From: a virus
Reading direction: 5' to 3' (one strand)
Virus record (IMG/VR): IMGVR_UViG_3300045988_122854
Length of the DNA: 64,000 nt
In this document: in pieces, positions 1 through 64,000 of the stretch
Numbering within the stretch: the stretch's first letter is position 1
How the letters are laid out: the number at the start of each line of letters is the position of its first letter
Notes under the pieces: model-generated
Told to the model about the DNA's origin: nothing
Databases searched by the model: none
What the model saw: only the letters and a program-made list of their open reading frames with translations
Made by a program: the position numbers and the translations under genes

Positions 1-20
1 CTCCAAAGTAAATGTTTTGG

Positions 21-102
21 CAAGAGGGCAGGGACTCGAACCCTGGTGGGTATTAACCGTCGGTTTTGGAGACCGATGCAATCGCCGCTATGCGACCCCC
101 TT
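21..102 (-). tRNA. tRNA with anticodon CCA (Trp-type by anticodon) and an unusually long 14-nt variable region; CCA tail encoded at 18-20
   Basis: Hand-folded cloverleaf on the minus strand. Acceptor AAGGGGG/CCCTCTT (one G-U pair). D-stem GCA/TGC with an 8-nt GG-containing D-loop. Anticodon stem TCGGT/ACCGA with loop CTCCAAA, giving anticodon CCA. T-arm CAGGG-TTCGAGT-CCCTG. Discriminator G. U8, A14 and A21 present. Confidence 0.7.
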
Positions 103-126
103 GTATAAAACAAGACCTTAACTTTG

Positions 127-196
127 TCCGGAAAATGGATTTGAACCATTAACTTAATCTTAAATGATTATGACCTAACCTTTAGTCTATTCTGGA
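127..196 (-). ncRNA. tRNA-like cloverleaf (possible pseudo-tRNA or aberrant tRNA) with a 6-nt anticodon loop and an A-C mismatch in the acceptor stem
   Basis: T-arm AATGG-TTCAAAT-CCATT is canonical. D-stem GACT/GGTC with loop AAAGGTTA. Acceptor TCCAGAA/TTCCGGA pairs 6 of 7. Anticodon stem TAATC/GATTA closes a loop ATTTAA of only 6 nt, so no anticodon can be assigned. Confidence 0.4.
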
Positions 197-220
197 AGTT
201 ATTTTGCTGTAAAGGTCTTT

Positions 221-270
221 CTTTATTTTATAAATATATTATATATTATTTTTTTAAAAATGTCAAAAAA
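221..270 (-). promoter_or_regulatory. Copy of the conserved AT-rich phage promoter (minus-strand TTGACA-N17-TATAAT) positioned to drive the tRNA / tRNA-like pair
   Basis: On the plus strand, tgtcaa lies at 261-266 and attata at 238-243 with a 17-nt spacer. Same 45-bp motif as the other copies (13716, 15205, 16860, 18985, 19340, 22120, 24185, 25800, 29150, 31695, 34660). Confidence 0.6.
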
Positions 271-273
271 TTT

Positions 274-1152: not shown

Positions 1153-1163
1153 ATAATCTCCTA

Positions 1164-3041: not shown

Positions 3042-3584
3042 TTATTTATTTAATTTTAATAAATAATAACAATTAGGACATAAATATTTATTATCATTTG
3101 TTTTAAAAAATGGAATATTCTATCCATTAGATTTAGACTTTAAACCACACATTTCACATATTTTATTATCCTATTGTACTATTGGAATATTTACCGTAAT
3201 ATCAGGTTCAAAAATATTAGTAAGATTATTAAATATTTTTTCACTATAATTTAAAATCAAATTTTCATCATTCTAATAATCATACTAACAAATCTAATAA
3301 CTTATCCAAATACAATCTTTTAAATTAGATAGATCTATTTTCTCTATCGGTATAATTGTATTAAAGTTTATTTCATTAACTTCTTTAAAATTTATTTTTT
3401 CTTTTAAAATATACTATACCTAATAAATAATAAATCTGTCTTTCCTAATAATACCTAACTAAAAATAAATAAATAAAACCCAAAAATCATAAATACTATT
3501 CGGATCAAACCTTAATAGAAATTCTTTTAATAAAGTCCAAAAGTCAGACTCTACCTATCCAAAATGATGATCGGTAAATCTCAT
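3042..3584 (-). CDS. Hypothetical 180-aa protein with a C-terminal zinc-ribbon-like CxxC...CxxC; contains 9 in-frame TAG codons
   Basis: Frame checked codon by codon: ATG at 3582-84 overlaps the upstream stop as TAATG; TAA at 3042-44. In-frame plus-strand cta (minus TAG) at 3555, 3459, 3420, 3414, 3294, 3285, 3273, 3171, 3120. No TAA or TGA in between. Confidence 0.5.
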
Positions 3585-3784
3585 TAGCTTTCTCCTTTAT
3601 CAGATTTATTAAAACAAAAATGTAAATATTTATTTAAATCAGGAAGATTACCTAATTTTGGAGGTACATTAAATAAATAAGGTTTATCTCCTTTAGTAAA
3701 ATCTAAAAAATTATTTAGAAGAAAATAAACTTTTTCTTTATATTCTTGATAAGTTTCAATCATAAATACTTTCTCCTTTTCCAT
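3584..3784 (-). CDS. Small hypothetical protein (66 aa)
   Basis: ORF with ATG at 3782-84; overlaps the upstream gene's stop in an ATGATTGA arrangement. Confidence 0.4.
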   Translation of the reverse strand: MEKEKVFMIETYQEYKEKVYFLLNNFLDFTKGDKPYLFNVPPKLGNLPDLNKYLHFCFNKSDKGES

Positions 3785-5852
3785 CTAAATAATTTAAAAA
3801 CCATTCATAAGTAGGCACATAACACAATTCATTATTAAGATAATTTAATAATGAATAAATTTCATTTTTAATATCATCAAAATTAGTTATACATTCTCCT
3901 CTTAAAAGATTAAACTCAATTTTCTAATTTTTAATATCTTCTATAATCTGTTTATCTAAATTACATAAATTAGGAATATTATTAAAATCTTCTTTATTAT
4001 TAGATAAATTATACATAGTATATAATATATAATAAATTAAAAGAATAATCTTTTCTAAAAAATAATTATTTTCATATCCATAAAAAGAAGAATCTAAATC
4101 ACTTATTAATTTTATTTCATTAATAATTCTATAAAGATTTCGTCTTAAAGTACTTTGTTTGCGGTTTTCATCAATATTTTCCAATTTCAAAATATCAATA
4201 AAATTAGCAAAAAATACAATTATTTTATTAATATATCCTGTAATTACCATATTAGAATTAGAATGAGATAAACAATTAGGATTATCTTCTAACTAAGTTA
4301 TATAAAGACCTAAATTCTAATCTTCTAACTCATAAGATTCACCATAAATATCGCATCTATCTAAGAATATACTATCTTCTCCAAAGAAAAATTTTGAATA
4401 TTTTATATTATTCTTATTAAGAAAATCTCTTTTAAGAATTAAATTAATCTTTTCAACTGATTTATCAGCATTAACTATTTTAAATACCCCAAAATTTTCT
4501 TTGCTATATTTTATTGAATTATATAAAATTTCTAAAACATTATCATTTGAAAATAAATCATCAGAATCCCAAAATAACACATATTTATTAAAAGAATATT
4601 CTAGTCCTAAATTGCGAGTTAGACCAGGCCCTTTTCGTTTTAAATTCTTAAAAAAGAAACAAGGAAAATTTGCTTCATCAAATACTTCAATAAGTTTTTT
4701 ATCATAGAAAGAATGGTCACTAATAAAATATACACAACAATCTTTTATAATTGTTTGGGTAGATAAATTATTATACAAATTAATAATTTGCTAATCATTC
4801 ATATTATAATAAGGTATTATAATATCCATTTTTCCATCAATAAAACGAGTAAAACATTTTTTTAAATAATAAGTATTATATCTAAATTCAATTGGGCATC
4901 TATTTTCTTTAAATAGCTAATAATTTTCTAAAAAATTTTCTTTATCATTAACTAATTTTAAATAAAAATCATAATCTCTAAAATAAGCATCTTCCATTGG
5001 AACTATAAATTCTGATTTTGTATCATAATATTTGTGCCAAATCCAAGAAGCTTCAGACATAGTCCCATCGCAATATCTACAAATATTTTTAGGTTTAAAA
5101 ATGAAATTATGTAAATCATCTAAACTATTTATATCCTCTAACTGCAAATAATCGCTTTCGTCTTCTGGGATATTTACATTATATTTCTTTCTATAAATAT
5201 CCAAGTGTGCAGAAAATGGACATATATAAATTTTATAATTTTTTAAAGTAAAACAAGGTAACTAATGCGGACATTTATGAAAATATACTTCATTTATATC
5301 AGTAGTTCCTGCTTCATTTACAAGCTATTGTCGCATAAATAATCTTGAATTATGATTAAAACCTAAACCATGACTGTCTAGATACTCTATCGCTTTATGA
5401 TCGGTATATTTTCCATAAGTAGTAACATCAAATATTACTCCCATATCTTTATATTCTTTCTCATGTTTAAAAGCATCTTGTAAATGACACCCATTGCTTA
5501 ATATTTTAATTTCCACCTTATCTTTTGGGAAAACTTCTCTAGCAATCTAACATATTTCAAATAATTTTGGATGTAAAGTAGGTTCTCCACCTAAAATCAT
5601 AAAAAGTTTTATATTTGGAATTTTTTTATAAGCAAAAGTAATCTGATTGCGGAAATCATCTAAATCAATATACCAAGGTTCTGCTAAAGGGGAAAAATGA
5701 TTACATCCTGCGCAGTTAAGATTACAATGATCTACAATATGCATTTCTAAACTAACCCCATCATAGACCGATTTCCATACTGGATTAGTATAAGGAGGAA
5801 TCCCTTGATAATTTTTAGTTCTATCTATTTCCATATTTATTCTCCAAAACAT
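3756..5852 (-). CDS. Radical-SAM (N-terminal) / family-2 glycosyltransferase (C-terminal) fusion, or two translationally fused genes, read through at least 8 in-frame TAG codons
   Basis: N-terminus has CNLNCAGC (CxxxCxxC) and GGEP. From about 4836 downward: MDIIIPYYN ... KGPGLTRNLG ... FWDSDD (GT-A fold, DxD motif). One continuous frame from ATG 5850-52 to TGA 3756-58. The only internal stops are TAG at 5547, 5325, 5262, 4917, 4791, 4317, 4293, 3924. Confidence 0.6.
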
Positions 5853-6396
5853 TTATAATATTTCTATTATAATTAACTAGTTCTTTTATTTGGTTATCTC
5901 TTTCCTACAAAAAACATCCCGTGCAAATTTCATTTATATCATTTAAATCACTATGAAAAAATTCACAACGATGTATTTTTCTATTTAACTATTCACAATT
6001 TTTATCACACTTTAAAATCTATTCTTCTTTATCGTAAATAATTGGATGTTCTTCTTCAAATCGTAAAGTTAAATATAATTTAAATTCTAATTGTCCCTAA
6101 CTTGAATATAACATTGTTCTATAAAAAATAGATTTTACTGTAGATTCAAATGTAAATTTTTGTTTTTGACTAAAAATTAACTCAATAATTTTTATATCTT
6201 TATATTCTAAATCTTTTAATTGACTATATAGATAATTTAATGAAGAATATTCTATATCATTTGAATTATTTACAATTTTGCAAAAAGTAATTTCTTTTGG
6301 AAAATTTAATCCAAAAACAATATCATTACATTCACGCTCGTCAAACTTTACTGTTCTTAGTAAAGTTTGACGAGCATTATATAAATTAATTAACAT
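5813..6396 (-). CDS. Cys-rich hypothetical protein (about 194 aa) with one in-frame TAG
   Basis: ORF 6097..6396 continues through TAG at 6097-99 into a CDKNCE...HRCEFFH...CTGCF segment. TAA at 5813. Overlaps the radical-SAM gene start by about 40 nt in another frame. Confidence 0.4.
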
Positions 6397-9599: not shown

Positions 9600-9640
9600 T
9601 TATATTATAAAACTCCTTTTTCTCAAAAGAATTAAGAACG

Positions 9641-10378
9641 CTATCTACCAGCGCCACTACGGTTTGTGCTATTAGAAGTATAAGCTCCTCTATTAGAACC
9701 TCTATAAGCACTTCTATAACCGTTATTACTACCATAATTAGAAGAACGATTACTATTATTACTACTATAATTAGAGCTTCTTACGCCATTATTACTTGAA
9801 TAATTAGCAGTATAATAGGTATAATTACTTGAATAATTTGAACTTCTATGACCATTATTACTTGAATAGTCTGAAGAGCGTTGAGCATTATTACTTGAAT
9901 AGTCTGAAGAGCGCTGAGTATTATTGCTTGTATAATAAGAACTATTATAACTATTATTACTTGAATAGTCTGAAGAACGCTGAGTATTATTGCTTGTATA
10001 ATAAGAACTATTATAACTATTATTACTTGTATAATCTGCACCACGATAACTATTATTACTTGTATAATTCGCTCCGTTATAGGCACAAATGCCATTTATT
10101 GTATCAAGTTTACTTCTAATTTCCTCTAAGGGGACTCGTTTCATAAGCTCACTAGCTCTTGGAGCGGTAAAATTAGAAAAAGTAGCCTAAGTTCCTACAT
10201 AAGAAACATTTCTTAAATTTTCAATTTCATTTTTTAAAGTAGTAATATCACTTTGTCTCGCATGACGCTCCCCATTTAAGGGAGCGGTCGTGCGAGTTTG
10301 AGAAAAACGAGTCTAAGCAGTATTTAAAGTATCATATAGAGCGCGAACATCACTCCATGAAATACGACTACCAGCCAT
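9641..10378 (-). CDS. Candidate RiPP precursor peptide: about 100-aa leader plus a Tyr/Ser/Asn-rich tandem-repeat core; 2 in-frame TAG in the leader
   Basis: ATG at 10376-78 preceded by AAGGAGAG at 7 nt. In-frame through TAG twice, into ...MKRVPLEEIRSKLDTINGICAYNG, then repeats of YTSNNSY / DYSSNN / RSSNYSSNN. The DNA shows 36- and 57-nt tandem repeats at 9780-10100. Lies directly upstream of two radical-SAM genes on the same strand. Confidence 0.55.
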
Positions 10379-31994: not shown

Positions 31995-32008
31995 AAGGTA
32001 TTGAACAA

Positions 32009-32771: not shown

Positions 32772-32930
32772 TTAATTTTAAATGAGAGGGACACGAGAGA
32801 CATGAGGGACATGAGAGACAAAAGCTTTAGTAAGTAGAGATTATGTCCCTATGTCCCTCATGTCCCTAACGGGACAAGAGAGACATGAGAGACATAATGT
32901 AATAAGTTATGTCCCTGACGTCCTTCGGAC
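32640..32930. repeat. Array of about 20 copies of the heptamer GGGACAT / ATGTCCC (variants GAGACAT, GGGACAC, GGGACGT) in both orientations; candidate origin, iteron or centromere-like site
   Basis: Direct reading: gggacatcagggacattggggac...atgtccctagggacacgagagacattagggacgtcagagacgtcaagggacattggggacat, followed after the stop by the inverted orientation (atgtccctatgtccctcatgtcccta). Confidence 0.6.
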
Positions 32931-32975
32931 GCAGGAACAATATGGAGATTTTTTTGAGAGTAAAAGGAGTAAAAT

Positions 32976-33272
32976 ATGAGTTATAGTTATACAGATATAA
33001 GAGGCGGAAAAGGGAACCCGTCTATTGTTAAATTTAGAAGAGGAACACAAGAATAGTTTGATAAGTTAGATAAGACAGGTATGATAAAACCTGATTTATA
33101 TATGAAAGATGATACTCTTTATTTAGTTATTCCAGATGATATGAAACCAATAAAGGTAAAGTATGACGATAGAAAAGTAGAATGGGATAAATCAGGTGTA
33201 GGAACTTTAATTAAAAATAATGATAAACCTGAATCAATAGAAGAGAATCCATTCCTACAAGATTATATTTAA
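32976..33272 (+). CDS. Hypothetical protein (98 aa, 1 TAG)
   Basis: AAAAGGAG RBS; ATG 32976; same frame as ORF 33081..33272. Confidence 0.45.
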
Positions 33273-36599: not shown

Positions 36600-37160
36600 C
36601 CTTTCTTTGCGGTAGGTCGCTACCCTTTTGATATATTGAGTATACTACATTTTAGAGTGCTTGTCAAGAGGTTTCGCAAACTTTTTACACGAATTACTAC
36701 CCCGACCTGACGGATAATTTATTGTTTGTTGGTTCAATCTATCTGTCAGCGAAAATCGCTTCGAGTATAGTTGGCTCAATCAAACTCACTTTCGCGTTCA
36801 ACGTTTGGCTTTACAACGTGGTGTATTATGTTTACTTCCTGTACTTTCTCAAGGTCGCGCGCCCTCGGATTTCTTGGGCTACTCCCTCTTGACATTTTCT
36901 ATTGTAGCACACTCGCTGGGATTTGTCAAGAGGTTTTCAAGAAAAAACTCATGAATTTTTTCTTTTATCCCGTGCGTTCCGCTCCGAAGAGACCTTAACG
37001 TAATAGGTGAACGGTCTATTGCTACTTCCAACCGTAGCCCCACACCGACCTGTGGCTCAGGGGTTTCCCTCTTGACATTATTCATTATAGCAGATTCCAC
37101 ATAGATTACAATTGACAAAATAACCAAATTACGGGAAAAAATTTTCTTCACTTTTGTGCA
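36600..37160 (-). promoter_or_regulatory. 560-bp non-coding leader with at least 3 tandem minus-strand promoters (TTGACA...TGcTATACT/TACAAT) and GC-rich structured segments
   Basis: No credible ORF (the 172-aa call 36879..37397 has implausible composition). Repeated ccctcttgacatt...tatagca blocks at 36880, 37060, 37170. Confidence 0.45.
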
Positions 37161-37313
37161 ACTTTTCTCTTGACAAAATTGGCGGGGTGTGGTATAATGG
37201 TGAATTCGGCCCGCTTTGGGCGTTAGCGGGCCGACCATTTTAACACAAAAATCCGCGTTTGTCAATAGGTAAAATAGACAAAAAAAACTGCCCATTTTTG
37301 GGCAGTTTTTCAT
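37070..37313. repeat. Face-to-face promoter / GC-hairpin module, copy A
   Basis: Plus TTGACA 37170-75 and TATAAT 37193-98. Hairpin cggcccgc...gcgggccg at 37207-33. Minus -10 (plus atttta 37237-42) and -35 (plus tgtcaa 37260-65), each with a 17-nt spacer. Terminator ctgccca-ttttt-gggcag at 37283-37311. Confidence 0.55.
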
Positions 37314-53030: not shown

Positions 53031-54086
53031 ATGATAAAACTTGATTATTCTTTACAAACTCCAGAAGAAAGAAATCAATTAGTCGAACAAATTTTGGCTG
53101 ACAATCCAGATCCGCCTGAGAAATATTTAGAAATTTTAGCAGACTATTTGGTTCTTTGTATGGAGAAACAAGAAAAAAAGGAGAAAAAATTATTAACTGA
53201 TAATCGTATGGCTACAGTTAATAAGCGTGAGACTTCTTTTGAAGGTCTTGTTTCCCAACTCGAAAATGGCGAAGATGGAATTTATAATTTAATTACAGAT
53301 AATAGAAATACAATATTTCAACCACATATTACAATTACAAAAAAAGATTTAGAAGAGATACCAAGTTTAAATTAGTTAAGAGAAGCCATTAATGTTTGGG
53401 AGGCTAAATTAAAAGTAACAGAAGGCAAAGATGCTTTTGTTATTAAAAAGGCTCTTATTGAAATGCGTAAAGATTAGTATGTTATGAAAAATGCTTATCG
53501 TCGTCCAATAGTGCCTACAAAATTAACCAGATCAAAGTCTTATATTCCATTAGATGATAAAACATTTATTTTTGATGATGATGGTTTTCCCATTCCTGAT
53601 GGAATTAGTTTACTAAGACCTGAAATATGTTCTGCGGTTTTATGTAATTATTCCCGATTAAAGCAAGATAGTTGGGGCGAATATGATAAAGATTTATGGT
53701 ATTTAATGGAGGATTTTGATAAGCTTTGTGATAAAGCTTTAGCTAATTATCCTCTTTATGATAGAATCGTTGAATATAAAATTGATGGTTTACAAAATAT
53801 TGACATTCAAGAGAAAATACAAATGGAATTTGGTATTAAGCATAGTCTTGAATATATTTCAAGTTTATGGCGTAATAAAATTCCAAAATTAATTGCTTCG
53901 ACTGCGGAAGACGAATATTTAGATAATTATTATTTAAATGTTGAAAAAGGCAAATATAAAAAATGTAGTCGTTGTGGTAAAATAAAATTGGCTCATAATA
54001 AATATTTTAGTAAAAATAAAACAAGTAAAGATGGCTTTTATAGTATTTGTAAAAGTTGTCGAAATTCTAAGGCCAAAAAATCTTAA
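53031..54086 (+). CDS. Hypothetical protein (351 aa, 2 in-frame TAG) with a C-terminal zinc ribbon
   Basis: ORFs 53031..53375 and 53484..54086 are in one frame, joined through TAG at 53373 and 53475. CSRCGK...CKSCR at the C-terminus. Confidence 0.5.
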
Positions 54087-54135: not shown

Positions 54136-55323
54136 ATGGCTGAAACATATTATTGTGAAAAATGTAATCGTACAATGAATGGCACGGAATTCTATTCATC
54201 TAATAATTTAGAAAAATATCCTAATGATGGTAAATTTCCTGTGTGCAAAAAATGTATGACAATGCACGTCGATAATTGGAATCCAGATACTTATTTATGG
54301 ATTTTACAAGAAGCGGATGTTCCTTATGTTCCAGATGAATGGAATAAATTAATGGAAAAATATGGGCGCGATCCGCAGTCTATGACCGGTATGACAATTC
54401 TTGGACGTTATTTGTCAAAAATGAAACTCAAATAGTTTAAAGATTATCGTTGGAAAGATACAGAATTTTTATAGTAGATGGCGAATAATAAATTAGAACA
54501 AACTATGAAACGTCAAGGATATGATGCTCAATAGATTGCAACCGCTATTGAAAAAAGTTCTATTGCTATTCCAGAAGGAGAACTAAAAGAGCCGGTTTAT
54601 GCTCCACCACCTAATGCCCCTACGGAAGATTATTTTGCACAATAGAGTGGGGAAGTGGAACAAGAATTAGACTTAACTGATGAAGACCGCACTTATTTAA
54701 GACTTAAATGGGGTAAGACTTATAAACCTGAAGAATGGGTTAAGCTTGAATAGTTGTATGAAGAAATGATGGCTTCTTATGATATTCAAGGCGCCGGACA
54801 TAAAGATACGCTAAAATTAATATGTAAAACATCTTTAAAGGCAAATCAATTGATCGATATTGGTGATATTGAAGGTTTCCAAAAGATGAGCAAAGTATAC
54901 GATAGCTTAATGAAGTCTGGTAAATTTACCGCTGCTCAAAACAAAGCAGAATCAGGTGAATTTGTTGATTCAATTGGCGAATTAATTGAATTATGTGAAA
55001 AAGAAGGATATATTGAAAGATATTATGTTGAATAGCCACATGATAAAGTGGATTTAACTATTCAAGATATGCAACGTTATACTCGCACTCTTATCGAAGA
55101 TGAAACTAATATTAGCACAATGGTAGAAAAGGCTTTGCGCGAAAATGCCAAAGAAGATGAAGAGAAAGCAAAGAACGCGGAAAGCGATATCGTTGATGAT
55201 GCTGATTTAAGTATTGAAGAACTTGAAAAAACTATTAAAGATAGTGATTACGCGGATTTTGAGGAATTTAAAGAATAGGAATCTGCACAAGATAATGAGT
55301 TCTTATAGGGCTTGGATAAATAA
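54136..55323 (+). CDS. Hypothetical protein (about 395 aa, about 9 in-frame TAG); by position a possible small terminase subunit
   Basis: ORFs 54136, 54754 and 55048 are all in frame 1. TAA at 55321. N-terminal CEKCN...CKKCM zinc ribbon. Confidence 0.4.
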
Positions 55324-57062
55324 TGGCATTACAAGATTTACTGTAGTTAAGTGATAGCCGTAGAAAAATAGGGTTATCACCGGAGCGAGTAGAAGCGGTA
55401 ATGCCCACTATTCGCAAATACGTTGCCTTTTGGAGAGAATATCCTGATTTATTTGTAGATTTTATGGTGCGAGGAAGACGCACTGAAATAAAAGATGGAG
55501 AATTTAATTTTTATTTTTATTAGAGAGTATTTCTCCGTTCTGTTATGCGTTATTAGTATGTTTACGCGGTTTTCCCTCGTGCTTATTCTAAATCATTCTT
55601 GTCTGTTATGGCATTAATGATTAGATGTATTTTATATCCTGGTGCGCATTTGTTCGTTACTTCTGGAGGTAAAGAGCAAGGTGCTAGCATTCTTCATGAT
55701 AAAGTTCAAGAAATATGTGAACTTATTCCAAGCTTTAATCGAGAAATTGATTGGAGCCGAGGAAAAACTCTTGAAGGAAAAGATAAAGTTAGATATGTGT
55801 TTAAAAATGGTTCAGTTTTGGATAACCTTGCAGCTCGTGAAAGCACTCGTGGTTAGCGTCGTCATGGTGGACTAATGGAAGAATGTGTTGGTATTGATGA
55901 TGCCATTCTTCGTGAAGTTATTATTCCTGTTATGGCAATTTCTCGTAGAGCTAAAGATGGCACTACCAATGAACAAGAGCCATTAAACAAATCACAAATC
56001 TATATTACTACTGCTGGTTATAAGGGCACATTCCCTTATGATAGACTTATTGGTTTCTTAGTTCGTATGGTAACTTAGCCTGATCGTTGTATGGTATTAG
56101 GTGGAACCTGGCGAACTCCTGTTGCAGTAGGATTACAAAGTAAAACATTTATTACTGACCAAAAGAATGAAGGAACTTATAATGAAGCGTCATTCGAACG
56201 TGAATATGAATCTAAATGGTCAGGAACGGTCGAGGATGCTTTCTTTAATGGAGAGCATTTTGATAGAAATAGAAAACTGTTATAGCCTGAATATGAAGCT
56301 TCTGGACGTGCGGGCGCGCAGGCTTATTATGTGCTTTCTGTAGATGTAGGTCGTAAAGGATGCGATTCAGTAGTTTGTGTATTTAAAGTAACACCACAAG
56401 CTCAAGGTCCAGCTATTAAATCATTAGTAAATATGTATACTATGTCAGATGACCATTTTGAAGATTAGGCTATTAAATTAAAGAAATTATTTTATAAATA
56501 TAAAGCTAAAACTTTGGTTATAGATGGTAATGGTTTAGGTATTGGACTTTTAGATTATATGGTAAAATCTCAAAATGATGAAGATGGTGAATTTTTACCT
56601 GATTTCGGTGTTGAAAATGATGATGATGGATATTATAAAAAATATCGCACACCAAATACTCAATTTGATGCTATGTATGTTATTAAAGCAAATGCTCCAA
56701 TAAATACTGAATGTCATGCTAATGCTTAGACTCAATTACAGGCGGGTAAAGTAAAATTCTTAATAGATGAGAGAACAGCTAAAGAAAAATTATTAGCTAC
56801 TCAAAAAGGTTCAAAAATGACTCCTGAACAAAGGGCAGATTATTTAAAACCATTTACTTTAACCTCCATATTAAAAGAAGAAATGATGAATTTACGCGAA
56901 GAAAATGAAGGTATTAATATTATCCTAAAACAGGCGAATCGCGGAATTCGTAAAGATAAATTTTCGGCTTTTGAATATGGATTATATTATTTAAAACTTG
57001 AAGAAGATAAAAAGAAAAAACGTAAAAAGTTTAATGCGGCTGATTGGTGCTTTTTAAATTAA
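55323..57062 (+). CDS. terL: Terminase large subunit (about 579 aa, multiple in-frame TAG)
   Basis: ORFs 55599, 55875, 56091, 56514 and 56817 are all in frame 0. ...ARESTRG[TAG]RRHGGL... and a C-terminal RNase-H-like block LVIDGNGLGIGLLDYM. Lies immediately upstream of the portal gene. Confidence 0.55.
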
Positions 57063-57074: not shown

Positions 57075-57431
57075 ATGCGTGCTTCAAGAGGAGAAATTAA
57101 AATTGAAGAAATCTTAGAAGAAGCAGGACTACCTTTTAAAATGGAATATATCTTTCCAGATTTAAAAAGCCCAAGCGGGCGTCCGCTTCGTTTTGATTTT
57201 GTTATATTTGATGATGATGGAAAAATTGATTTCATTATTGAGTATTAGGGAAAATAGCATTATGAAGCCAGTTCTAAATTTGGCGGAAAACGCGGTTTAT
57301 ACCAGTAGCAATATAATGATAATCAAAAAAGACGTTTTTGCGCTTTACATGATTTTAGATTAATAGAGATTCCATATACCGACGAAAACCTTATTTCTTA
57401 TGATTATATAATGAAATTAGCAGGTTATTAA
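57075..57431 (+). CDS. Small DUF559/Vsr-like PD-(D/E)xK endonuclease (about 118 aa, 4 in-frame TAG) inserted between terL and the portal gene
   Basis: PLRFDFVIFDDDGKIDFIIEY[TAG]GK[TAG]HYE, homologous to the C-terminus of gene 27506..28435. Confidence 0.5.
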
Positions 57432-57444: not shown

Positions 57445-59094
57445 TTGGATACGCAAGATCGTAATGATTAGATTCATGCTAAAGGTTTTGATATTTATAA
57501 TGGTCGTTATGAATATAATTATAATGACACTATGGATTATGCCAATAGAAAAATAAAAGTTGGCACAAAAACTTTAGATGATGCTATTTTAAAACTTGGT
57601 GATTATAGTAAGATTAGATACCCAGGTCAAACTCGTATTATCACGAAACCTGATGTGCTTTGCGCGCTTGCGGAAAGAGATTTAAATGCTTTACGATATA
57701 TTTCTAATTTTTATTATGACATAAGTGGTGTATATCAACGAGTTTGTAATTATGTTGCTTTTTTATACCGCTATGATTGGTATATTGCAGCCGAAACTTA
57801 TGATGATAGTGTAAAAGAAGAAAAAGTTTTAAAAGATTTTTATAGAATGTTGAATTATTTTGATAATAGTTATATTAAAAAGATTTGCGGAGATATTGCT
57901 TTACAAGTCGTTAAAAATGGATGCTATTATGGATATATAGTTCCTTCAGAAAAAAATCTAATTTTACAAGAATTGCCAGTTAGATATTGTAGAACACGTT
58001 ATAGTGTAAATAATACCCCAGTTGTCGAATTTGATATGCGATTTTTTGATACTTTTAGAGATATGAATTACCGCTTAAAAGTATTAAAATTATTCCCAGA
58101 AGAATTTGCTAAAGGTTATGTTTTATACAAGCAAGGAAAACTTGCTCTAGAAGAAGCGGTTGGATGCTAGCATACTGGTAGTTGGTATGTTCTTGAGCCA
58201 GAAAATTGTATTAAATTTAATATTAATAATAGTGATGTTCCTATTTTTGTAAATTCCATTCCTACTATTATGGATTTAGATGCAGCGCAAGATCTTGACC
58301 GCAAGAAACAAATGTAGAAGTTGCTTAAAATTTTAGTCCAAAAGCTCCCAATGGATAAAAATGGTGATTTGATATTTGATGTTGATGAAGCTAGAGATAT
58401 CCATAATAATGCCGTTTAGATGTTATAGAGGGCTATTGGAGTAGATGTTTTAACTACATTTACTGATGTAGATTCTATTGATATGTCTGATAAGAATACT
58501 ACTACAACGACAGATGATTTAGCTAAAGTTGAACGTAGTGTTTATAATTCATTAGGTATTTCATAGAATTTATTTAATACTGATGGTAATATGGCTTTAG
58601 AAAAATCAGTATTAAATGATGAATCTACAATAAGAAGTTTAATTTTATAGTTTAATATATTCTTTAATAGGATTATTGAAAAAAAGAGTAGTAATAAAAA
58701 ATATAATTTTAGATTTTATTTATTAGAAACTACTCAAAATAATTATCAAACACTTTCTAAAATGTATAAAGAACAAGCGCAAATGGGACAATCAAAACTA
58801 TTGTCTTAGATTGCTCTTGGACATTCGTAGAGTTTTATTCTTAATGCAGCTCATTTTGAAAATGAGATTTTACATTTAAGTGAAATTATGATTCCTCCTC
58901 TTATGAGTTCTACTATGGGTAGTGAAGATATTTTGGGTTTAAAAGGTTCATCATCTAATAATAAAACTCAAAATAATTCAGGAAGCTCAGGTTCTGGAAC
59001 TGCTAAAGCTTCTAATGGCGAGGCAGGACGTCCGGAGAAACCTGATGATTAGAAAAGTGAAAAAACTATTCAAAATAAAGAAGCAATGAAATAA
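57445..59094 (+). CDS. Portal protein (about 549 aa, about 10 in-frame TAG)
   Basis: AAGGAGGTGG RBS then TTG 57445 (or ATG 57532). Single frame to TAA at 59092. Size and position after terL. Confidence 0.5.
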
Positions 59095-59103: not shown

Positions 59104-60690
59104 ATGAAACATACAAGTATTAAATTAAATACACCTTGTGAGTTTATAAATATAACTCCTGTAAATCCTTTAATTTCTAAATGTCAAATTAAGGTTTGTT
59201 ATGTAGATGATAAACCTAATCGTAACAAAAGCGTAATTACTAAAGATGTAGCGACTGAGATGGCTAATAGCCTTCCTGGTAGTCCTATTGTTGGCTTTTT
59301 TAATGAGAATGCTGAAGATTTTGAAGAACATAATAGGATAATTGAATTATCTAACGGCGAATTTAGAATGAGAGATAATACTCGCCCTTATGGTTTCGTT
59401 GATCTTGGAGCTAAAGTTTGGTTTTAGAAATTTTTGGATGATGGTGTTGCCGAACGTGAGTATTTAATGACTGAAGGTTATCTGTGGACTGGTTAGTATC
59501 CTGAATGTAAACGTGTAGTTGATAAAGGGAATAATCATTCTATGGAGCTTGATGAAAAAACATTAAATGCTACGTGGGCAAAAGATAGTAATGGAAAGCC
59601 TTAGTTTTTTATTATAAATAAGGCAATTATTTCTAAACTTTGTATTTTGGGAGAAGAAAATGAACCTTGTTTCGAAGGTTCCCAAATCAATGTGAATTTT
59701 TCATTCGATGATGGTTTTAAGAACACTTTGTTCTCCATGATGAATGAACTCAAAGAATTTATGAAAGAAGGAGGACCCAAAGTGTTTACACAATATGCTG
59801 TTGAAATTGGCGATAGTTTGTGGAATTCTCTCTGGTCTTATGTTGAGACTAAATATCCTGGCGAGCCTAGTAGTTATTGTTCTATTTATCGCATTGAAGG
59901 CGTTTATGAAGATGCTGGACAAAAGTTTGCTATTCTTCAAAATAGACAAGACCAAAAATATTATCGCATGGACTTTTCTCTTACCGATGTAGAAGGCTTT
60001 GTTCCTTCTGACGCTTTAACTGAAGTAACTAAGTCTTATACTCCGGCAACAGAGCCTCAGTTTGCTCTTGCTGATATTGAAGCTTTTGAGACTGATTATG
60101 CTTCAAAGAAAAAGGCTGAGGAAGAGGACAAAAATAATAAATCTAACGGCCAAAACCCTGATAATAAATCAGAGGGCAATGATAATAAAAAGAACCCTGA
60201 TAACGGGGAACCCTCTAATAAGTCTGATAAAGGCGACAATGGCGAGAATGATGATGATAAAAAGAAAAAGAAAAATTATTCTCTTGAGGACGTTGTTGAA
60301 TATACTGAACTTAAAGCTCAGTATGATGAATTACAGACTAAATTCGCGGCTCTTGAAACTGAAAATAATAGCTTGAAAGAGCAAATTGCTCCACTTGCTG
60401 AATTTAAAAATGCTGCTGAAAAGAAAGATAAAGAAGATATGATTGCTAAATTCTATATGCTTTCTGATGAAGATAAAGCTGATGTTGTTGAAAATATTGA
60501 TAAATATTCTCTTGATGATATTGAAGCTAAATTATCTGTTATTTGTGTTCGCAACAAGGTGAGTTTCGACCTTGACGAAAATAATAAGCCCAATGGTGCT
60601 ACTACTTTTAATTTGAACAATAATGGTTCAGAAGATGATGATATGCCCGCTTGGGTGAAGGCGGCTTTTGCTACCGCCAACAAAAATTAA
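59104..60690 (+). CDS. Head morphogenesis / scaffold-like protein (about 528 aa, 3 in-frame TAG) with an acidic, K/D-rich coiled-coil C-terminal half
   Basis: ORFs 59104 and 59647 share a frame. Low-complexity KAEEEDKNNKSNGQNPDNKSEGNDNKKNPDNGEPSNKSDKGDNGENDDDKKKKK. Confidence 0.4.
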
Positions 60691-60707: not shown

Positions 60708-61625
60708 ATGTTTAAAGACTTTTTGAATAAGAATCTTCCTATTAAGTCTCAGGCAAAGTATGTTGAGTTTGGTTACGGTCAGGTCGAGCCTAATCACCTT
60801 TCCGCACAAAGAAATGCTCAAATCTATGCTCAACTTCCTGCCAATAAAGACATTGAGATTCTTGAAAACGGTCAGTTTGTAAAGTATGACTATGCTGCTA
60901 ATGGTAATGGTATTGGCGAAGTCAACTTCACTGGCGAAGGTGAATGGATGCTCGTTTATAACGAAATTAAGCTTTATCGTGATCATTATGATGGCAGTAA
61001 GCAGTGGGATTGTGAATTTGCTATGATTAAAGATGACTATCAGGCTCGTGTTTATAGTCCTTATGATTGGGAGCATACCGAGGTTGAATATGGTGGTCGT
61101 TTTTGGAATGGCGTTGATGAGAAGGGTCAAACCTATAAGTTAATCAATCAGACCGTTTCCGCAGATCAAGGTTTAAAGACTGTTACTATTGCTGGTCGTG
61201 TTTATGATGTTGATGAAACCGGCAAGTTTACTTATGATGGTAATGAATATACTCTTGATAGTAATCATCAGGTTGCTAATGTTCCTGTAAAGTATTATTA
61301 TGATAAGCTTCTTACTGATGTTCCTGATATGTATGAAATGAATTGGACTAATGATCCATACCATAAGTTAGGTATTTATCATGAGAAGTTCATGGAATCT
61401 GGCACTTCTATGGTTCCTCGTGTATTTAAGACCATGATTGGTGATCTTTATACTACTAATATGATTAATGAAGAGACTCTTGCTGTTGGAGATAAGCTTT
61501 CTCCTTCTGCTGCTACAAAGGGTATTCTTAGCAAAACTGGCGACGATTCAATGACCTGGCAGGTTGTTAAGGTTTATACTATGCCTGATGGTCAAAAGGG
61601 CGTCAAGGTAATGCGTATTAAGTAA
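60708..61625 (+). CDS. Structural (head) protein (305 aa, no TAG); strong RBS
   Basis: TAAGGAGG 8 nt upstream of ATG; codon usage is GC-richer than its neighbours, as expected of highly expressed genes. Confidence 0.4.
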   Translation: MFKDFLNKNLPIKSQAKYVEFGYGQVEPNHLSAQRNAQIYAQLPANKDIEILENGQFVKYDYAANGNGIGEVNFTGEGEWMLVYNEIKLYRDHYDGSKQWDCEFAMIKDDYQARVYSPYDWEHTEVEYGGRFWNGVDEKGQTYKLINQTVSADQGLKTVTIAGRVYDVDETGKFTYDGNEYTLDSNHQVANVPVKYYYDKLLTDVPDMYEMNWTNDPYHKLGIYHEKFMESGTSMVPRVFKTMIGDLYTTNMINEETLAVGDKLSPSAATKGILSKTGDDSMTWQVVKVYTMPDGQKGVKVMRIK

Positions 61626-61642
61626 GAAAGGAGAAAAGGATA

Positions 61643-62749
61643 ATGTTAGATAAAAATAATTTAATTGCTCTTATGAAGCAAGTTGCTAAGGCTGATCCTT
61701 CTGCTCCTGTTGCTTATAGTTATGAGGGAAAAAATCTTAGTTATGAAGCCTTAAATGAAACTCTTCGTAATGAAATGAATGAGTTGGCTGGTACTTATGC
61801 TCTTTATCGTGAAAATAAGAATCTTATTTTCTCTATGATTGAGCAAACTCTTGATGAGGTTCTTCCTAAGAAAGTTATTCAGCAATATGATCAGTTTGCT
61901 GAGGTTAAGACTTTCGCTCAGGGTGATAAGCCTATTTTCCGTCGTCCTCTTAATAATCGTGCTCGTGCTAAGCAGTTTGTAACTCGCGTTGGTCTTGCTG
62001 GTATTTATGAAGTCTTCAAGCTCGGACCTAAAGAGAATGAAGCCTTCGAGGTACGTACTAGCGCTATCGGCGGAGCTGCTCAGATTGGCTTCGAAGAGTT
62101 CCTTGATGGTCGTGTTGATTTCGGCGAAGTAACCAAGATCATCATGGATGGTATGGATGAACTTATTTATAAAGAAGTTGCTGCTGCTCTTAGATCTTCT
62201 ATCAATCAGCTTCCTCCTGCTAACCGCGTTGCGGCTGCCGGATTTGATGAAGCTGCTATGGATCGTTTGATCACTATTGCTTCTGCTTATGGTACTCCTA
62301 CTATTTATTGTACTTATGAGTTCGCTGTTAAGATGATTCCTCATGAGGCTTGGAGATATACTGAAGCTATGAAGAATGAGCTTTGGAATAATGGTCGTCT
62401 TGCTACCTACAAGGGCACTAAGGTTATTATTCTTGAGCAGGGCTTCGAAGATGAAACCAATACTCGTAAGGTTATTGATCCTGGTTATGCTTGGGTTATT
62501 CCTACGGGCGCTGATGGTAAGCCTGTAAAGATTGCTTTCGAAGGTGGTACTATTGTTGACGAGTTCAATAATTATGACCGTTCTCGTGAGATTCAGGTTT
62601 ACAAGAAAGTTGGCGTAGTTTGTATGCTTGCTAATAACATCTGTGCTTACGTTGATACTTCACTTCTTGGTCAGATGTATACTTGGAATTATGATGGAAT
62701 TACTGGTAAGGTTATCACTTATGATGGTCGCCTTGACGGTACTGTCTAA
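61643..62749 (+). CDS. Putative major capsid protein (368 aa, no TAG)
   Basis: Position downstream of the portal and scaffold genes, strong RBS, size; no motif-level confirmation possible by eye. Confidence 0.35.
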   Translation: MLDKNNLIALMKQVAKADPSAPVAYSYEGKNLSYEALNETLRNEMNELAGTYALYRENKNLIFSMIEQTLDEVLPKKVIQQYDQFAEVKTFAQGDKPIFRRPLNNRARAKQFVTRVGLAGIYEVFKLGPKENEAFEVRTSAIGGAAQIGFEEFLDGRVDFGEVTKIIMDGMDELIYKEVAAALRSSINQLPPANRVAAAGFDEAAMDRLITIASAYGTPTIYCTYEFAVKMIPHEAWRYTEAMKNELWNNGRLATYKGTKVIILEQGFEDETNTRKVIDPGYAWVIPTGADGKPVKIAFEGGTIVDEFNNYDRSREIQVYKKVGVVCMLANNICAYVDTSLLGQMYTWNYDGITGKVITYDGRLDGTV

Positions 62750-62835
62750 TTTAATATAAATTATTCCATGGGGAGAAGGGATTAAACTCCCTCTCCCCAT
62801 ATTTTTGTTTTATGAGTAAAAGGAGAAATTGAATA

Positions 62836-63429
62836 ATGATTAATAATGAAGATATTTATAATGTAAAAAATAGAAGCACTAGTGTAGTTGTTTATACTAT
62901 TCCTGATACTAATTTGCGTCGTGAATTTGCGCCCGGTGAGACTAAGCGTATTCCATTTGGTGAGTTAGAGAAATTAACTTATCAGGCAGGTGGTCGCGAA
63001 TTAATTGCTAATTTTTTACAAATTTTAGAGCCAGAAGTAACTCATACTCTTAATGTTCATACTGAACCTGAATATAATATGTCAGAGCAACAAGTTGCTG
63101 ATTTAATTCTTAATGGCTCATTAGATGCTTTCTTAGATGCTCTTGATTTTGCTCCTATTGGAATTATTGACTTAATCAAGAATTTATCTGTTAGCCTTCC
63201 TATTACTGATATTAATAAGCGTAGAGCTTTGAAGGAAAAAACTGGGTTTGATGTTGATAAAGCTATTGCTAATGATATCGCTAGTAAAGAAGAAGATACT
63301 ATTGTAGAGAAAGAGCCCGCGGTTAAGCGTCGTGTAGTAAGAGAAGAACCTACTACTCAAGGTCGTCGCACAAGCGGTTCTGGATATAAAGTAATTAATA
63401 AAACCGAGGAAACTTCCTCCAAGAAATAA
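62836..63429 (+). CDS. Hypothetical structural protein (197 aa)
   Basis: Intact ORF in the late module. Confidence 0.4.
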   Translation: MINNEDIYNVKNRSTSVVVYTIPDTNLRREFAPGETKRIPFGELEKLTYQAGGRELIANFLQILEPEVTHTLNVHTEPEYNMSEQQVADLILNGSLDAFLDALDFAPIGIIDLIKNLSVSLPITDINKRRALKEKTGFDVDKAIANDIASKEEDTIVEKEPAVKRRVVREEPTTQGRRTSGSGYKVINKTEETSSKK

Positions 63430-63449
63430 TTTATAGGAGGGCGATTAAG

Positions 63450-64000
63450 TGGGAACATTATTCTCAACTGTTTATAATCGCTTTCTAAACAAGGTTACTG
63501 ATGATATGTATCTGGAATTAACTCCCGAAAATACTTTAAGAGATTTATAGAATCTTATAATAGATGCTATTCCTGGATTTGAATTTCCGCGAAAAAATCT
63601 TTTAGATTATAATTTAGATGTCGCTACTATTAATGAATCTGATGCTGCACCTGATGATTTCATTGTAGGAACAGTATGGGGAGAGCTTCCAGAACCGGGT
63701 GAAGAACCTCAAGTTTTAGTTGATAGATCCAGTTTTAATTGTGATCTAACTGAAGAAGAAATTAATATTCTAGCTATTTTAATGATGTGTGGTTGGACGC
63801 AAAGACAGGTCACTTCAATTGAGAATACTCGAATGAAATATAGTGGCTCTGATTTTAAATTTACTTCTTAGGCAAATCATTTATCAAAGTTATTAAATTT
63901 GTTAGGTGAATGCCAAAGACAATCTCACCATATGTAGCGTTTATATAAACGTAGACGTTTAAACGACAAAGGTGAGTATGAATCTAACTGGGATGTATTT
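63450..64000 (+). CDS. Hypothetical structural protein (partial; continues beyond the window; at least 2 TAG)
   Basis: GTG 63450 after a GGAGGG RBS; reading continues to the window end through TAG codons. Confidence 0.35.

What the first reader, a model, noticed from the sequence alone, without database searches (positions are those of the whole stretch)
1..64000. TAG is a sense codon (probably Gln) throughout the element; TAA and TGA remain stops
At least 15 genes on both strands are continuous in one frame except for TAG. Examples: 3042..3584 (9 TAG), 3756..5852 (at least 8), 27506..28435 (9), 31842..33272, and essentially all late genes at 53-64 kb (terL, portal and others). Their ends are TAA or TGA.

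In two paralogous endonuclease domains the TAG falls at the position before His in IE.DG.[TAG]H. As I remember the DUF559 consensus (...DGGQH...), that position is Gln. Many long genes are TAG-free (YcaO, both standalone radical-SAM enzymes, the capsid-like genes, the whole GC-rich island). This fits the pattern reported for recoded gut phages, where suppression is tied to the expression programme.
Basis: seen in the sequence. Interest (0 to 1): 0.7.

Follow-up and report, generated by a model that had tools for sequence, protein, structure and literature searches.

The report
Gut phage reads TAG as glutamine
This 64-kb piece of a roughly 195-kb human-gut phage uses the stop codon TAG as a glutamine codon in about one gene in six, which is real but is a phenomenon already described for several gut-phage lineages.

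Summary
Of 104 genes mapped onto the window, 17 carry 79 in-frame TAG codons. None carries an in-frame TAA or TGA. All 103 complete genes end in TAA (74) or TGA (29), never TAG.

TAG means glutamine. In sister phages with no in-frame TAG in any late gene aligned, plus three isolates, 341 of 569 residues aligned to window TAGs are Gln. That matches the conservation of true Gln codons, and Gln beats the next candidate by about 755 log-likelihood units. In TAG-using genes TAG takes the place of CAG.

No tRNA(CUA) lies in the window. All 12 closest relatives carry exactly one, in the tRNA array that starts at the window's left edge, about 10.2 kb beyond it. I could not read that spot in the window's own contig.

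The "expression programme" idea is only partly supported. Early-type small genes are TAG-free and most late genes use TAG. But the major-capsid module is TAG-free, and accessory biosynthetic genes and homing endonucleases are TAG-rich. TAG use also tracks low GC.

One cited example (31842..33272) is not a single gene, and the DUF559 assignment was not reproduced.

This is a new member of a known kind: TAG-to-Gln ("code 15") gut phages, SPbeta-like lineage, distantly related to phAss-1.

The parts
3042..3584 (-). 180-aa gene of unknown function in the YcaO/radical-SAM cluster; 9 in-frame TAG
   Evidence: Called as one gene in the public collection. TAG count. All 9 TAGs are kept in two 84-94% identical relatives.
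3756..5834 (-). 692-aa radical-SAM + glycosyltransferase-2 fusion; 8 in-frame TAG
   Evidence: The Pfam Radical_SAM (39-145) and Glycos_transf_2 (344-487) hits span TAG positions 96 and 348. A 41%-identical relative has CAA at position 191.
5815..6396 (-). 193-aa gene of unknown function; 5 in-frame TAG, the last one a single codon before the TAA
   Evidence: One position alternates TAG/CAG between relatives.
9632..10378 (-). 248-aa Ser/Asn/Tyr-rich repeat protein; 3 in-frame TAG, one of them 2 codons before the TAA
13757..14497 (-). 246-aa gene of unknown function; 2 TAG (codons 15 and 232). The table-11 ORF would be 13802-14341.
27506..28435 (-). 309-aa homing endonuclease with repeated Cys-rich modules and a C-terminal nuclease domain (IEFDGI[TAG]HY); 9 in-frame TAG
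   Evidence: Matches PHROG 374/559/9084, HNH/homing endonuclease. TAG count. The TAG before His aligns with CAA/CAG in relatives and with Gln in VRE9_4.
32009..33272 (+). Three small + strand genes (32009-32209, 32232-32771, 32976-33272) with 2, 2 and 1 TAG.
36849..37313 (-). 154-aa gene in the GC-richer early-type block with a single TAG 9 codons before the TGA. It is the best candidate for a TAG that still works as a stop.
53031..54086 (+). 351-aa sigma-factor-like protein, first gene of the late operon; 2 in-frame TAG
   Evidence: Matches PHROG 5767, sigma factor, E 3e-54. Both TAGs align only with TAG/CAA/CAG in about 72 relatives and with Gln in VRE9_4.
54136..55323 (+). 395-aa YonG-like late protein; 9 in-frame TAG
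   Evidence: PHROG 3314. Pfam YonG_N hit on the near-identical relative..
55323..57062 (+). Terminase large subunit, 579 aa; 8 in-frame TAG
   Evidence: PHROG 2. tblastn gives 44-47% identity to the TerL of Enterococcus, Geobacillus and Alicyclobacillus phages. Positions 68 and 383 are Gln in all three standard-code phages.
57075..57431 (+). 118-aa homing endonuclease between TerL and portal (IEY[TAG]GK[TAG]HY); 3 in-frame TAG
   Evidence: PHROG 559/9084. It sits at the same place as in phage VRE9_4. Positions 65 and 82 show only TAG/CAA/CAG in 89 alignments.
57532..59094 (+). Portal protein, 520 aa; 9 in-frame TAG
   Evidence: PHROG 2739, E 2e-79..
59104..60690 (+). 528-aa YonD-like protein with a coiled-coil; 3 in-frame TAG
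   Evidence: PHROG 3313. Pfam YonD_N hit on the relative..
60708..63429 (+). Capsid module with no TAG at all: 60708-61625, the major-capsid homologue 61643-62749, and 62836-63429
   Evidence: Homologues are annotated 'major capsid protein' in Bacillus phages PJN02, Kirov and Thrax1-3. The gene is TAG-free in almost every relative, even those with 12-14 TAG in TerL.
63506..64000 (+). Late gene cut by the window end; 3 in-frame TAG
   Evidence: PHROG 3853. The TAGs align with CAA/CAG in relatives.
18..196 (-). First two members of the phage tRNA array that continues beyond the left edge. They are tRNA-Trp(CCA) with an inserted variable region (18-102) and a tRNA-like gene with a 6-nt anticodon loop AUUUAA (126-196). 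Neither reads TAG.
   Evidence: ARAGORN. Rfam tRNA scores of 49.4 and 42.7 bits. Seventeen further tRNAs lie in the next 10 kb of the same contig.

Best explanation
The window is part of a roughly 195-kb SPbeta-like siphovirus from the human gut in which TAG is translated as glutamine. TAA and TGA terminate every gene.

Shown:
- TAG is an internal sense codon in 17 of 104 genes.
- It occupies Gln positions.
- It has taken the place of CAG in those genes.
- No gene ends in TAG.
- The lineage contains both TAG-using members and members with no in-frame TAG in the late genes.

Inferred:
- Decoding is done by a phage-encoded amber-suppressor tRNA(CUA) in the tRNA array that begins at the window's left edge. 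All 12 closest relatives carry one, about 10.2 kb beyond that edge.
- The tRNA is released by an HDV-like self-cleaving element directly at its 3' end.
- It is charged with Gln by the host enzyme. All three suppressor variants found in that slot share an unpaired 1-72 position, G2-C71, G73 and the loop CUCUAAA. From my own knowledge, this resembles the identity set of E. coli glutaminyl-tRNA synthetase and the classical Gln-inserting su+7 / su+3-mutant suppressors.
- Genes with TAG, including the late sigma-like factor, terminase and portal, can give full-length protein only once the suppressor has accumulated. The roughly 85 TAG-free small genes can be read by the unmodified host machinery.
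- The most abundant virion protein avoids TAG, presumably because suppression competes with release factor 1.
For: - Codon counts: 79 in-frame TAG against 0 TAA/TGA in 104 genes; stops are TAA 74, TGA 29, TAG 0.
- Relatives' codons: at 39 window TAG positions in 10 late genes, 80 IMG/VR relatives show CAA at 34 positions and CAG at 32. Gln is the commonest non-TAG residue at 26 of 39. Several positions show only TAG/CAA/CAG.
- Comparison sequences without in-frame TAG (16 sister loci plus three isolates): 341 of 569 aligned residues (60%) are Gln, against 54% self-conservation of real Gln codons. Log-likelihood is -922 for Gln and -1677 for Glu, the next best.
- Standard-code isolates alone: Gln is 19 of 85 aligned residues against a 3.9% background.
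- CAG replacement: TAG genes have CAG 18 and CAA 105; TAG-free genes have CAG 162 and CAA 113 (Fisher p = 2e-17).
- TAGs are evenly spread along genes (KS p = 0.67).
- A lysin-like NAGPA/SPOR gene just outside the window has 2 TAG at positions that are Gln in 16 and in all 20 of 20 homologues.
- Suppressor: one tRNA(CUA) in each of the 12 closest relatives. Rfam tRNA score 56 bits. An HDV-like match starts 1 nt after it (26 bits, E 0.006, whole model).
- Published precedent in related and unrelated gut phages: PMC10607447, bioRxiv 10.1101/2021.08.26.457843, PMC9523058, bioRxiv 10.1101/2023.06.13.544163.
Against: - No tRNA(CUA) is in the window. The window's own contig could be read only to about 460 nt short of the expected site, so its presence in this genome is inferred from relatives with about 92-96% DNA identity across the tRNA array (96-99% in the late region).
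- There is no protein-level evidence.
- The charging enzyme and the host are unknown. MAG bins that hold relatives disagree on taxonomy.
- The timing model is not clean. The capsid module is TAG-free, while accessory and homing-endonuclease genes on the early-type strand are TAG-rich. TAG share falls with GC (rho -0.52), so mutational C-to-T drift in AT-rich genes could explain much of the distribution.
- At a minority of TAG positions relatives have Glu, Lys or Asp, as expected for variable sites. That cannot exclude a small share of Glu insertion.
Confidence: 0.92

Rival explanations
1. TAG is sense, but its distribution among genes reflects mutation pressure and gene history rather than a regulatory switch. 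Once a suppressor exists, CAG-to-TAG transitions are nearly neutral. They then accumulate in AT-rich, weakly expressed or selfish genes and are purged from highly expressed ones.
For: - TAG share of Gln-type codons falls with GC (Spearman -0.52, p = 3e-5). Mean GC is 0.306 in TAG genes and 0.388 in TAG-free genes.
- The most TAG-dense genes are homing endonucleases and accessory cluster genes with 23% GC.
- The major-capsid gene is TAG-free in nearly all relatives.
- TAG counts per gene vary widely between close sublineages.
Against: - About 85 small early-type genes have essentially no TAG, although many are not GC-rich.
- The late operon opens with a TAG-containing sigma-like factor.
- The same late-gene bias is reported across unrelated recoded phages (bioRxiv 10.1101/2021.08.26.457843).
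- The two readings are not mutually exclusive.
Confidence: 0.4
2. TAG encodes an amino acid other than Gln: Glu through a non-discriminating GluRS without amidation, Trp, Tyr, Ser, Leu or pyrrolysine.
For: - ARAGORN labels the tRNA 'Pyl', but only because of its CUA anticodon.
- The commonest suppressor variant has a long variable region like Ser/Leu/Tyr tRNAs, and its nearest paralogue in the array is tRNA-Trp.
- Glu is the second most frequent aligned residue.
Against: - The likelihood ranking puts Gln about 755 units ahead of Glu and further ahead of the rest.
- In the late genes Trp, Tyr and Leu codons are essentially absent at TAG positions: TGG appears at one position that probably lies upstream of the true start, and TCT/AGT (Ser) only as minor variants at a few variable positions.
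- Positions invariant for Gln in standard-code TerL carry TAG.
- The tRNA lacks the features of tRNA-Pyl (very short variable loop, small D-loop; own knowledge), and two of the three variants in the slot are ordinary-length tRNAs.
Confidence: 0.04
3. The host itself reads TAG as sense and the phage simply follows its host's code.
For: No gene in the window ends in TAG, including the TAG-free ones.
Against: - 87 of 104 genes contain no TAG at all.
- Sister phages with 59-76% TerL identity have no TAG in any late gene aligned.
- The relatives carry their own tRNA(CUA).
- No bacterium with TAG = Gln is known to me.
- Borges et al. report partial use of this kind (26-71% of genes) for phages of standard-code hosts (bioRxiv 10.1101/2021.08.26.457843).
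Confidence: 0.03
4. The in-frame TAGs are assembly or sequencing errors, or the genes are pseudogenes.
For: None found.
Against: - Only TAG interrupts the frames, never TAA or TGA.
- The window is 100% identical over 62 kb to two independent ENA assemblies.
- The same TAG positions recur in dozens of contigs from other samples.
Confidence: 0.01

Closest known systems
phAss-1 / proposed 'Phassvirus' group (OQ749652; NCBI 'Caudoviricetes code 15 clade'; PMC10607447)
   Same: Both are human-gut siphovirus-type phages with a large tRNA array. Both have TAG-to-Gln in terminase, portal and other late genes and an intact TAG-free major-capsid gene. TerL identity is 44% and capsid identity 50%. The same wider family includes standard-code Enterococcus phages EF1 and VRE9.
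   Different: There is no nucleotide-level match (megablast found none). The genome is about 195 kb against 136 kb. phAss-1's Sup-CTA is an ordinary 74-nt tRNA with a U1-A72 pair. Relatives of this window carry one of three other suppressor bodies with an unpaired 1-72 position.
Recoded gut-phage clades of Borges et al. (bioRxiv 10.1101/2021.08.26.457843), especially the large TAG-recoded clades such as 'Sapphire'
   Same: A minority of genes use in-frame TAG; that paper reports 26% for Sapphire, and here it is 16%. Shared traits are a genome size near 200 kb, TAG in structural and lysis genes, a phage suppressor tRNA, code mixed within a clade, and samples from non-westernised gut cohorts.
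   Different: Membership of a named clade could not be tested because no reference sequences are held. No release factor or tRNA synthetase gene was seen in the parts read.
crAss-like code-15 phages with proteomic proof (PMC9523058)
   Same: The same reassignment, TAG read as Gln, concentrated in late genes.
   Different: It is an unrelated lineage (Crassvirales, Bacteroidota hosts). Here there is no proteomic evidence.
Theta (minimal HDV-like) ribozymes next to phage suppressor tRNAs (bioRxiv 10.1101/2023.06.13.544163)
   Same: In relatives, an HDV-like element with the CCUCCUCGCGG core starts 1 nt after the tRNA(CUA). It is retained while the tRNA body is swapped.
   Different: It is only a sub-threshold Rfam match (26 bits against a gathering score of 44). 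It lies outside the window, and cleavage was not tested.
Classical E. coli Gln-inserting amber suppressors (supE; su+7 from tRNA-Trp; mischarging mutants of su+3 tRNA-Tyr), recalled from my own knowledge
   Same: They share a CUA anticodon with U35, G73 and a weak or broken 1-72 pair, a combination that directs charging by GlnRS.
   Different: Those are laboratory mutants of host tRNAs. Here the tRNAs are phage genes, and their charging was not tested.

Membership tests
TAG-to-Gln ('code 15') recoded phage | In-frame TAG inside conserved, homology-supported genes, with no in-frame TAA or TGA | tested here: met
   79 TAG against 0 TAA/TGA in 104 genes. Domains and full-length homologies span the TAGs.
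TAG-to-Gln ('code 15') recoded phage | TAG aligns with glutamine in homologues translated with the standard code | tested here: met
   341 of 569 aligned residues are Gln, and Gln is the best candidate by about 755 log-likelihood units. Relatives show CAA/CAG at the TAG positions.
TAG-to-Gln ('code 15') recoded phage | TAA and TGA are retained as terminators and TAG is not used as one | tested here: met
   Stops are TAA 74, TGA 29, TAG 0. In about 5 genes a TAG lies 1-14 codons before the stop, so its role there is ambiguous.
TAG-to-Gln ('code 15') recoded phage | Phage-encoded suppressor tRNA with anticodon CUA | tested here: inconclusive
   It is absent from the window. It is present once in each of the 12 closest relatives, in the syntenic array. 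The site in the window's own contig lies about 460 nt beyond what could be fetched.
TAG-to-Gln ('code 15') recoded phage | Peptide evidence for Gln at TAG | not testable with these tools
   This needs metaproteomics.
Proposed genus Phassvirus (phAss-1) | High nucleotide identity to phAss-1 (about 80-86% between its members) | tested here: not met
   Megablast of 24 kb against the phage collection found no match. TerL is only 44% identical at the protein level.
SPbeta-like structural module | Syntenic YonG, YonF (TerL), YonE (portal), YonD, YonB, YomW/V/U genes | tested here: met
   Pfam YonG_N, YonD_N, YonB, YomW, YomV_2nd and YomU_Tube hits fall in order on a relative that is 96.5% identical. 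Best TerL hits include SPbeta-type and Enterococcus phages.
   There is no DUF559 hit even at E <= 1. The best hit is DUF2726 at 23.6 bits, below its 24.7 cut-off. PHROGs assign HNH/homing endonuclease.
Pyrrolysine system | tRNA-Pyl architecture and pylSBCD genes | tested here: not met
   The CUA tRNAs fit the general tRNA model and have either a normal or a long variable region. No Pyl-type conservation is seen at TAG sites. The pyl genes were not searched for genome-wide.

The most novel reading that the evidence does not exclude
The suppressor locus of this phage group is a swappable cassette. Among 12 near-identical phages the same slot (between tRNA-Val and tRNA-Tyr, followed by the same HDV-like element) holds three unrelated tRNA(CUA) bodies. 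All three have converged on an unpaired 1-72 position, G2-C71, G73 and the loop CUCUAAA.

The commonest body belongs to a wider phage family with an extra 3-bp variable arm supported by covariation and a conserved YUCUGMR loop. If that extra arm and the broken first pair are functional identity or anti-defence elements, this would be an undescribed structural class of natural Gln amber suppressor. Which variant the window's own genome carries is unknown.
Probability: 0.3. Interest if true: 0.5.

Novelty: new member of a known kind. Interest (0 to 1): 0.3.

Why it matters
For annotation, translating this genome with table 11 would shatter terminase, portal, the late sigma-like factor, a radical-SAM/glycosyltransferase enzyme and two homing endonucleases into fragments. 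Table 15 is the right choice.

Biologically it adds a large SPbeta-like gut lineage, present in hundreds of public assemblies, to the phages that switch the meaning of TAG. Within one TerL family (59-99% identity) it holds sublineages that use TAG and sublineages with no in-frame TAG in the late genes. That makes it a good natural series for studying how a codon reassignment starts and spreads.

The principle itself is already published, so the finding is confirmatory rather than surprising.

Tried and rejected
- Raw six-frame ORF coverage as a code test was rejected. Freeing TAA inflates coverage more than freeing TAG in this AT-rich DNA.
- Pfam on the late proteins gave almost nothing, and PDB sequence search of the capsid homologue gave nothing. 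Function came instead from PHROGs, from depositors' annotations and from Pfam hits stored with the public gene calls.
- Megablast against deposited phages found no match.
- The attempt to read the suppressor in the window's own contig failed. The 10-kb flank stops about 460 nt short. The homologue search returned only 97-98% identical representatives.
- Host identification through GTDB genomes failed. Relatives sit as whole phage contigs in MAG bins labelled Acutalibacteraceae, Lachnospiraceae, 'Mollicutes', Treponema, Bacteroidales and others, which points to binning noise, not prophages.
- The codon test in the YcaO/radical-SAM cluster was weak. Only three IMG/VR relatives exist and most of them keep the TAGs.
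- An origin of the long-arm suppressor from the phage's own tRNA-Gln, Tyr, Ser or Leu found no support. The nearest paralogue is tRNA-Trp, and only weakly.
- The apparent absence of one suppressor anticodon-arm 17-mer from the contigs of TAG-free relatives (compare) is only suggestive. Other CUA tRNAs would escape that pattern.
- No release factor or aminoacyl-tRNA synthetase gene was seen in the roughly 95 kb read. The whole genome was not scanned.

Full report
**What the window is**

The window has 36% GC overall, with blocks ranging from 23% to 45%. It is 100% identical over positions 1-30,984 to ENA contig ERZ5855999 scaffold_11 (194,410 bp, Peruvian gut sample). It is also 100% identical over 30,862-51,362 to ERZ1749166 NODE_10 (198,063 bp). 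It is therefore not a chimera, and it comes from a genome of about 195 kb.

PHROGs identify a late operon on the + strand from 53 kb:
- a sigma-factor-like protein at 53031-54086;
- a YonG-like protein;
- the terminase large subunit at 55323-57062;
- a homing endonuclease;
- the portal at 57532-59094;
- a YonD-like protein.

Stored Pfam hits on a 96.5%-identical relative name the module YonG/YonD/YonB/YomW/YomV/YomU, which is SPbeta-like. The best TerL matches among deposited phages are Enterococcus phages VRE9_4, H1 and EF1, Geobacillus E3 and Alicyclobacillus KKP_3916 at 44-47%, and phAss-1 at 44%.

Positions 0.3-31.7 kb and 34-51 kb carry about 85 mostly small genes of unknown function on the - strand. 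This block includes a YcaO/radical-SAM cluster at 0.3-10.8 kb.

**Checking the observation**

I mapped the public gene calls onto the identical stretches and added ORFs for 53-64 kb. This gives 103 complete genes and one gene cut by the window end. Seventeen of them contain 79 in-frame TAG codons. None contains an in-frame TAA or TGA. Terminal codons are TAA 74, TGA 29 and TAG 0.

In the two off-frames of the same genes, TAA plus TGA occur at 4% and 13% per codon. Frames of 500-700 codons interrupted only by TAG therefore cannot be chance. Read with table 11, the 17 genes fall into 96 pieces. TAGs are spread evenly along the genes.

The example 31842..33272 is wrong as a single gene: every frame there has TAA or TGA, and the called genes in that stretch are three small TAG-containing + strand genes. 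A crude ORF-coverage comparison is not informative here, because treating TAA as sense raises coverage even more than treating TAG as sense.

**Which amino acid**

Four tests agree on glutamine.

1. *Three cultured standard-code phages.* Gln is the residue most often aligned with a window TAG: 19 of 85 against a 3.9% background. TerL positions 68 and 383 are Gln in all three.

2. *80 IMG/VR relatives (TerL 67-99% identical).* I read the codon aligned to each of 39 window TAGs in ten late genes. CAA appears at 34 positions and CAG at 32. Gln is the commonest non-TAG residue at 26. Many positions show nothing but TAG, CAA and CAG. CAA is two substitutions away from TAG, so this pattern reflects synonymy, not mutational proximity.

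3. *Sister lineages without TAG.* The family contains sister lineages with no TAG at all in up to seven late genes. Using only those loci plus the three isolates, 341 of 569 aligned residues (60%) are Gln. True Gln codons of the window are 54% conserved in the same alignments. A Codetta-style likelihood gives Gln -922, Glu -1677, His -1732 and Lys -1835.

4. *Codon usage.* TAG-containing genes have 79 TAG, 18 CAG and 105 CAA. TAG-free genes have 162 CAG and 113 CAA (Fisher p = 2e-17). TAG has replaced CAG.

The codon before His in IEY.GK[TAG]HY is only ever TAG, CAA or CAG in relatives and is Gln in VRE9_4. The paralogue at 27506-28435 behaves the same way. The domain is not DUF559 by Pfam; DUF2726 is the nearest profile and falls below threshold.

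**The decoding machinery**

The window holds only two tRNA genes, at its left edge. One is tRNA-Trp(CCA). The other is a tRNA-like gene with a six-base anticodon loop.

The same contig continues with 17 more tRNAs in the next 10 kb, none of them CUA. Fetching the homologous region from close relatives showed one tRNA(CUA) between tRNA-Val(UAC) and tRNA-Tyr(GUA) in each of the 12 closest. These relatives are about 92-96% identical in DNA across this region. The position corresponds to about 10.2 kb left of window position 1, roughly 460 nt beyond what I could read of the window's own contig. Its presence in this genome is therefore an inference.

The slot holds three different tRNA bodies:
- 90 nt, in seven relatives;
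- 73 nt beginning UGAGGGG, in two relatives;
- 72-73 nt beginning CGAGGAA, in three relatives.

All three have a mismatched 1-72 position, G2-C71, G73 and the loop CUCUAAA. From my own knowledge, these are hallmarks of recognition by E. coli GlnRS and of the classical Gln-inserting suppressors. That is a lead, not a test.

The 90-nt form scores 56 bits on the Rfam tRNA model, with an inserted variable region. In eight divergent phage versions that region forms a 3-bp stem. Two of its three pairs show compensatory changes, and the loop is a conserved YUCUGMR. phAss-1's suppressor is an ordinary 74-nt tRNA.

One nucleotide after the tRNA begins a sub-threshold but full-length match to an HDV-type ribozyme, with the CCUCCUCGCGG core. 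It is retained whichever tRNA body occupies the slot. This matches the published association of 'theta' ribozymes with suppressor tRNAs of code-15 gut phages (bioRxiv 10.1101/2023.06.13.544163).

No release factor or synthetase gene was seen in the roughly 95 kb examined. The rest of the genome was not scanned.

**Which genes use TAG, and why**

The TAG users fall into three groups:
- Seven of ten late genes, plus a lysin-like gene just outside the window.
- Three genes of the AT-rich YcaO/radical-SAM cluster, the repeat protein at 9632-10378 next to it, one gene of unknown function at 13757-14497, three small + strand genes at 32-33.3 kb, and one gene (36849-37313) with a lone TAG near its end.
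- Two homing endonucleases, plus a GIY-YIG endonuclease outside the window.

The TAG-free genes are the roughly 85 early-type genes, YcaO, the stand-alone radical-SAM gene at 8100-9599 and the neighbouring unannotated 467-aa gene, and the whole capsid module. The major-capsid homologue stays TAG-free in almost every relative, even those with 12-14 TAGs in TerL. TAG share falls with GC (rho -0.52).

The published model says early genes are readable in standard code and late genes are gated by the suppressor (bioRxiv 10.1101/2021.08.26.457843). It fits in outline, and here the first late gene, a sigma-like factor, itself needs suppression. But selection against TAG in the most abundant protein, and drift in AT-rich or selfish genes, are needed to explain the rest. 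These parts are inference.

**Comparison with what is known, and novelty**

TAG-to-Gln recoding in gut phages is established computationally and by proteomics (PMC9523058). The nearest described group is phAss-1 (PMC10607447). This phage is not a member of that proposed genus: there is no nucleotide match and TerL is 44% identical.

Genome size, the fraction of recoded genes and the type of cohort resemble the large TAG-recoded clades of Borges et al. I could not test clade membership. The public protein collection already calls these genes through TAG, so automated pipelines have in effect recognised the code.

I rate the finding as a new member of a known kind, correct in its main claim and of modest interest. 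The suppressor cassette is the only part that might be new.

Noticed in passing
window 274-10808 (- strand): An AT-rich (23-28% GC) biosynthetic-looking cluster. It holds a U32-peptidase-like protein, YcaO, a radical-SAM + GT2 fusion, a second radical-SAM enzyme, several unknowns and a 248-aa Ser/Asn/Tyr-rich repeat protein (9632-10378, built from 33/66-nt tandem repeats). Only three IMG/VR contigs carry a relative of the rSAM-GT2 gene, so it is an accessory module.
   Followed up: partly
window 32630-32925: About 25 copies of a 9-nt unit AGGGACAYN / AGAGACAYN at 9-nt spacing, with inverted copies (TATGTCCC) at 32842-32923. The array lies where gene orientation switches and GC skew jumps to +0.35. 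It looks like an iteron array, possibly an origin or a binding-site array.
   Followed up: partly
window 18-102 (- strand): tRNA-Trp(CCA) with an insertion of about 11 nt in the variable region (85 nt; Rfam 49 bits). Relatives L090 and L091 have an ordinary 73-75-nt tRNA-Trp of different sequence at the same place.
   Followed up: partly
window 126-196 (- strand): A tRNA-like gene (Rfam tRNA 42.7 bits in a local search, missed by the whole-window scan) with a 6-nt anticodon loop AUUUAA. Counting from U33, this reads as UUA. In relatives L092 and L190 the loop reads as UCA. Both are stop-codon-complementary triplets, although TAA and TGA are the phage's terminators.
   Followed up: partly
L090 12489-12633 and the same slot in L089-L098, L190, L191 (about 10.2 kb left of the window): A suppressor slot with three interchangeable tRNA(CUA) bodies. 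All have a 1-72 mismatch, G2-C71 and G73, and each is followed directly by the same HDV-like (theta-type) element. The 90-nt body has an extra variable arm supported by covariation.
   Followed up: partly
L099-L105 (about 138-kb phages sharing the NAGPA/SPOR lysin-like gene at 72-75% identity): Arrays of 26-33 tRNAs. Two of the four scanned (L099, L103) also carry a tmRNA gene with tag peptide DNNYFDSHMAA. Several calls have 8-nt anticodon loops ('tgtt', 'taaa'). All four carry the 91-nt long-arm tRNA(CUA).
   Followed up: no
window 34000-52000: A GC-richer block (40-45% GC) of about 45 small - strand genes. It is not conserved in most 96-99% identical relatives, whose alignment with the window starts only at about 51.8 kb. 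It contains a diverged internal duplication of about 385 nt, 36227-36605 versus 38843-39227, at 79% identity.
   Followed up: no
window 57075-57431; L005 1794-2162: A homing endonuclease sits between terminase and portal both here and in the standard-code Enterococcus phage VRE9_4 (49% identity). This is an unusually stable position for a selfish gene.
   Followed up: no
L028/L041/L156 (IMGVR_UViG_3300032167_000002, 402,311 bp): One IMG/VR contig contains two different TerL relatives, 87% and 76% identical to the window's. It is probably a concatenation of two related phages.
   Followed up: no
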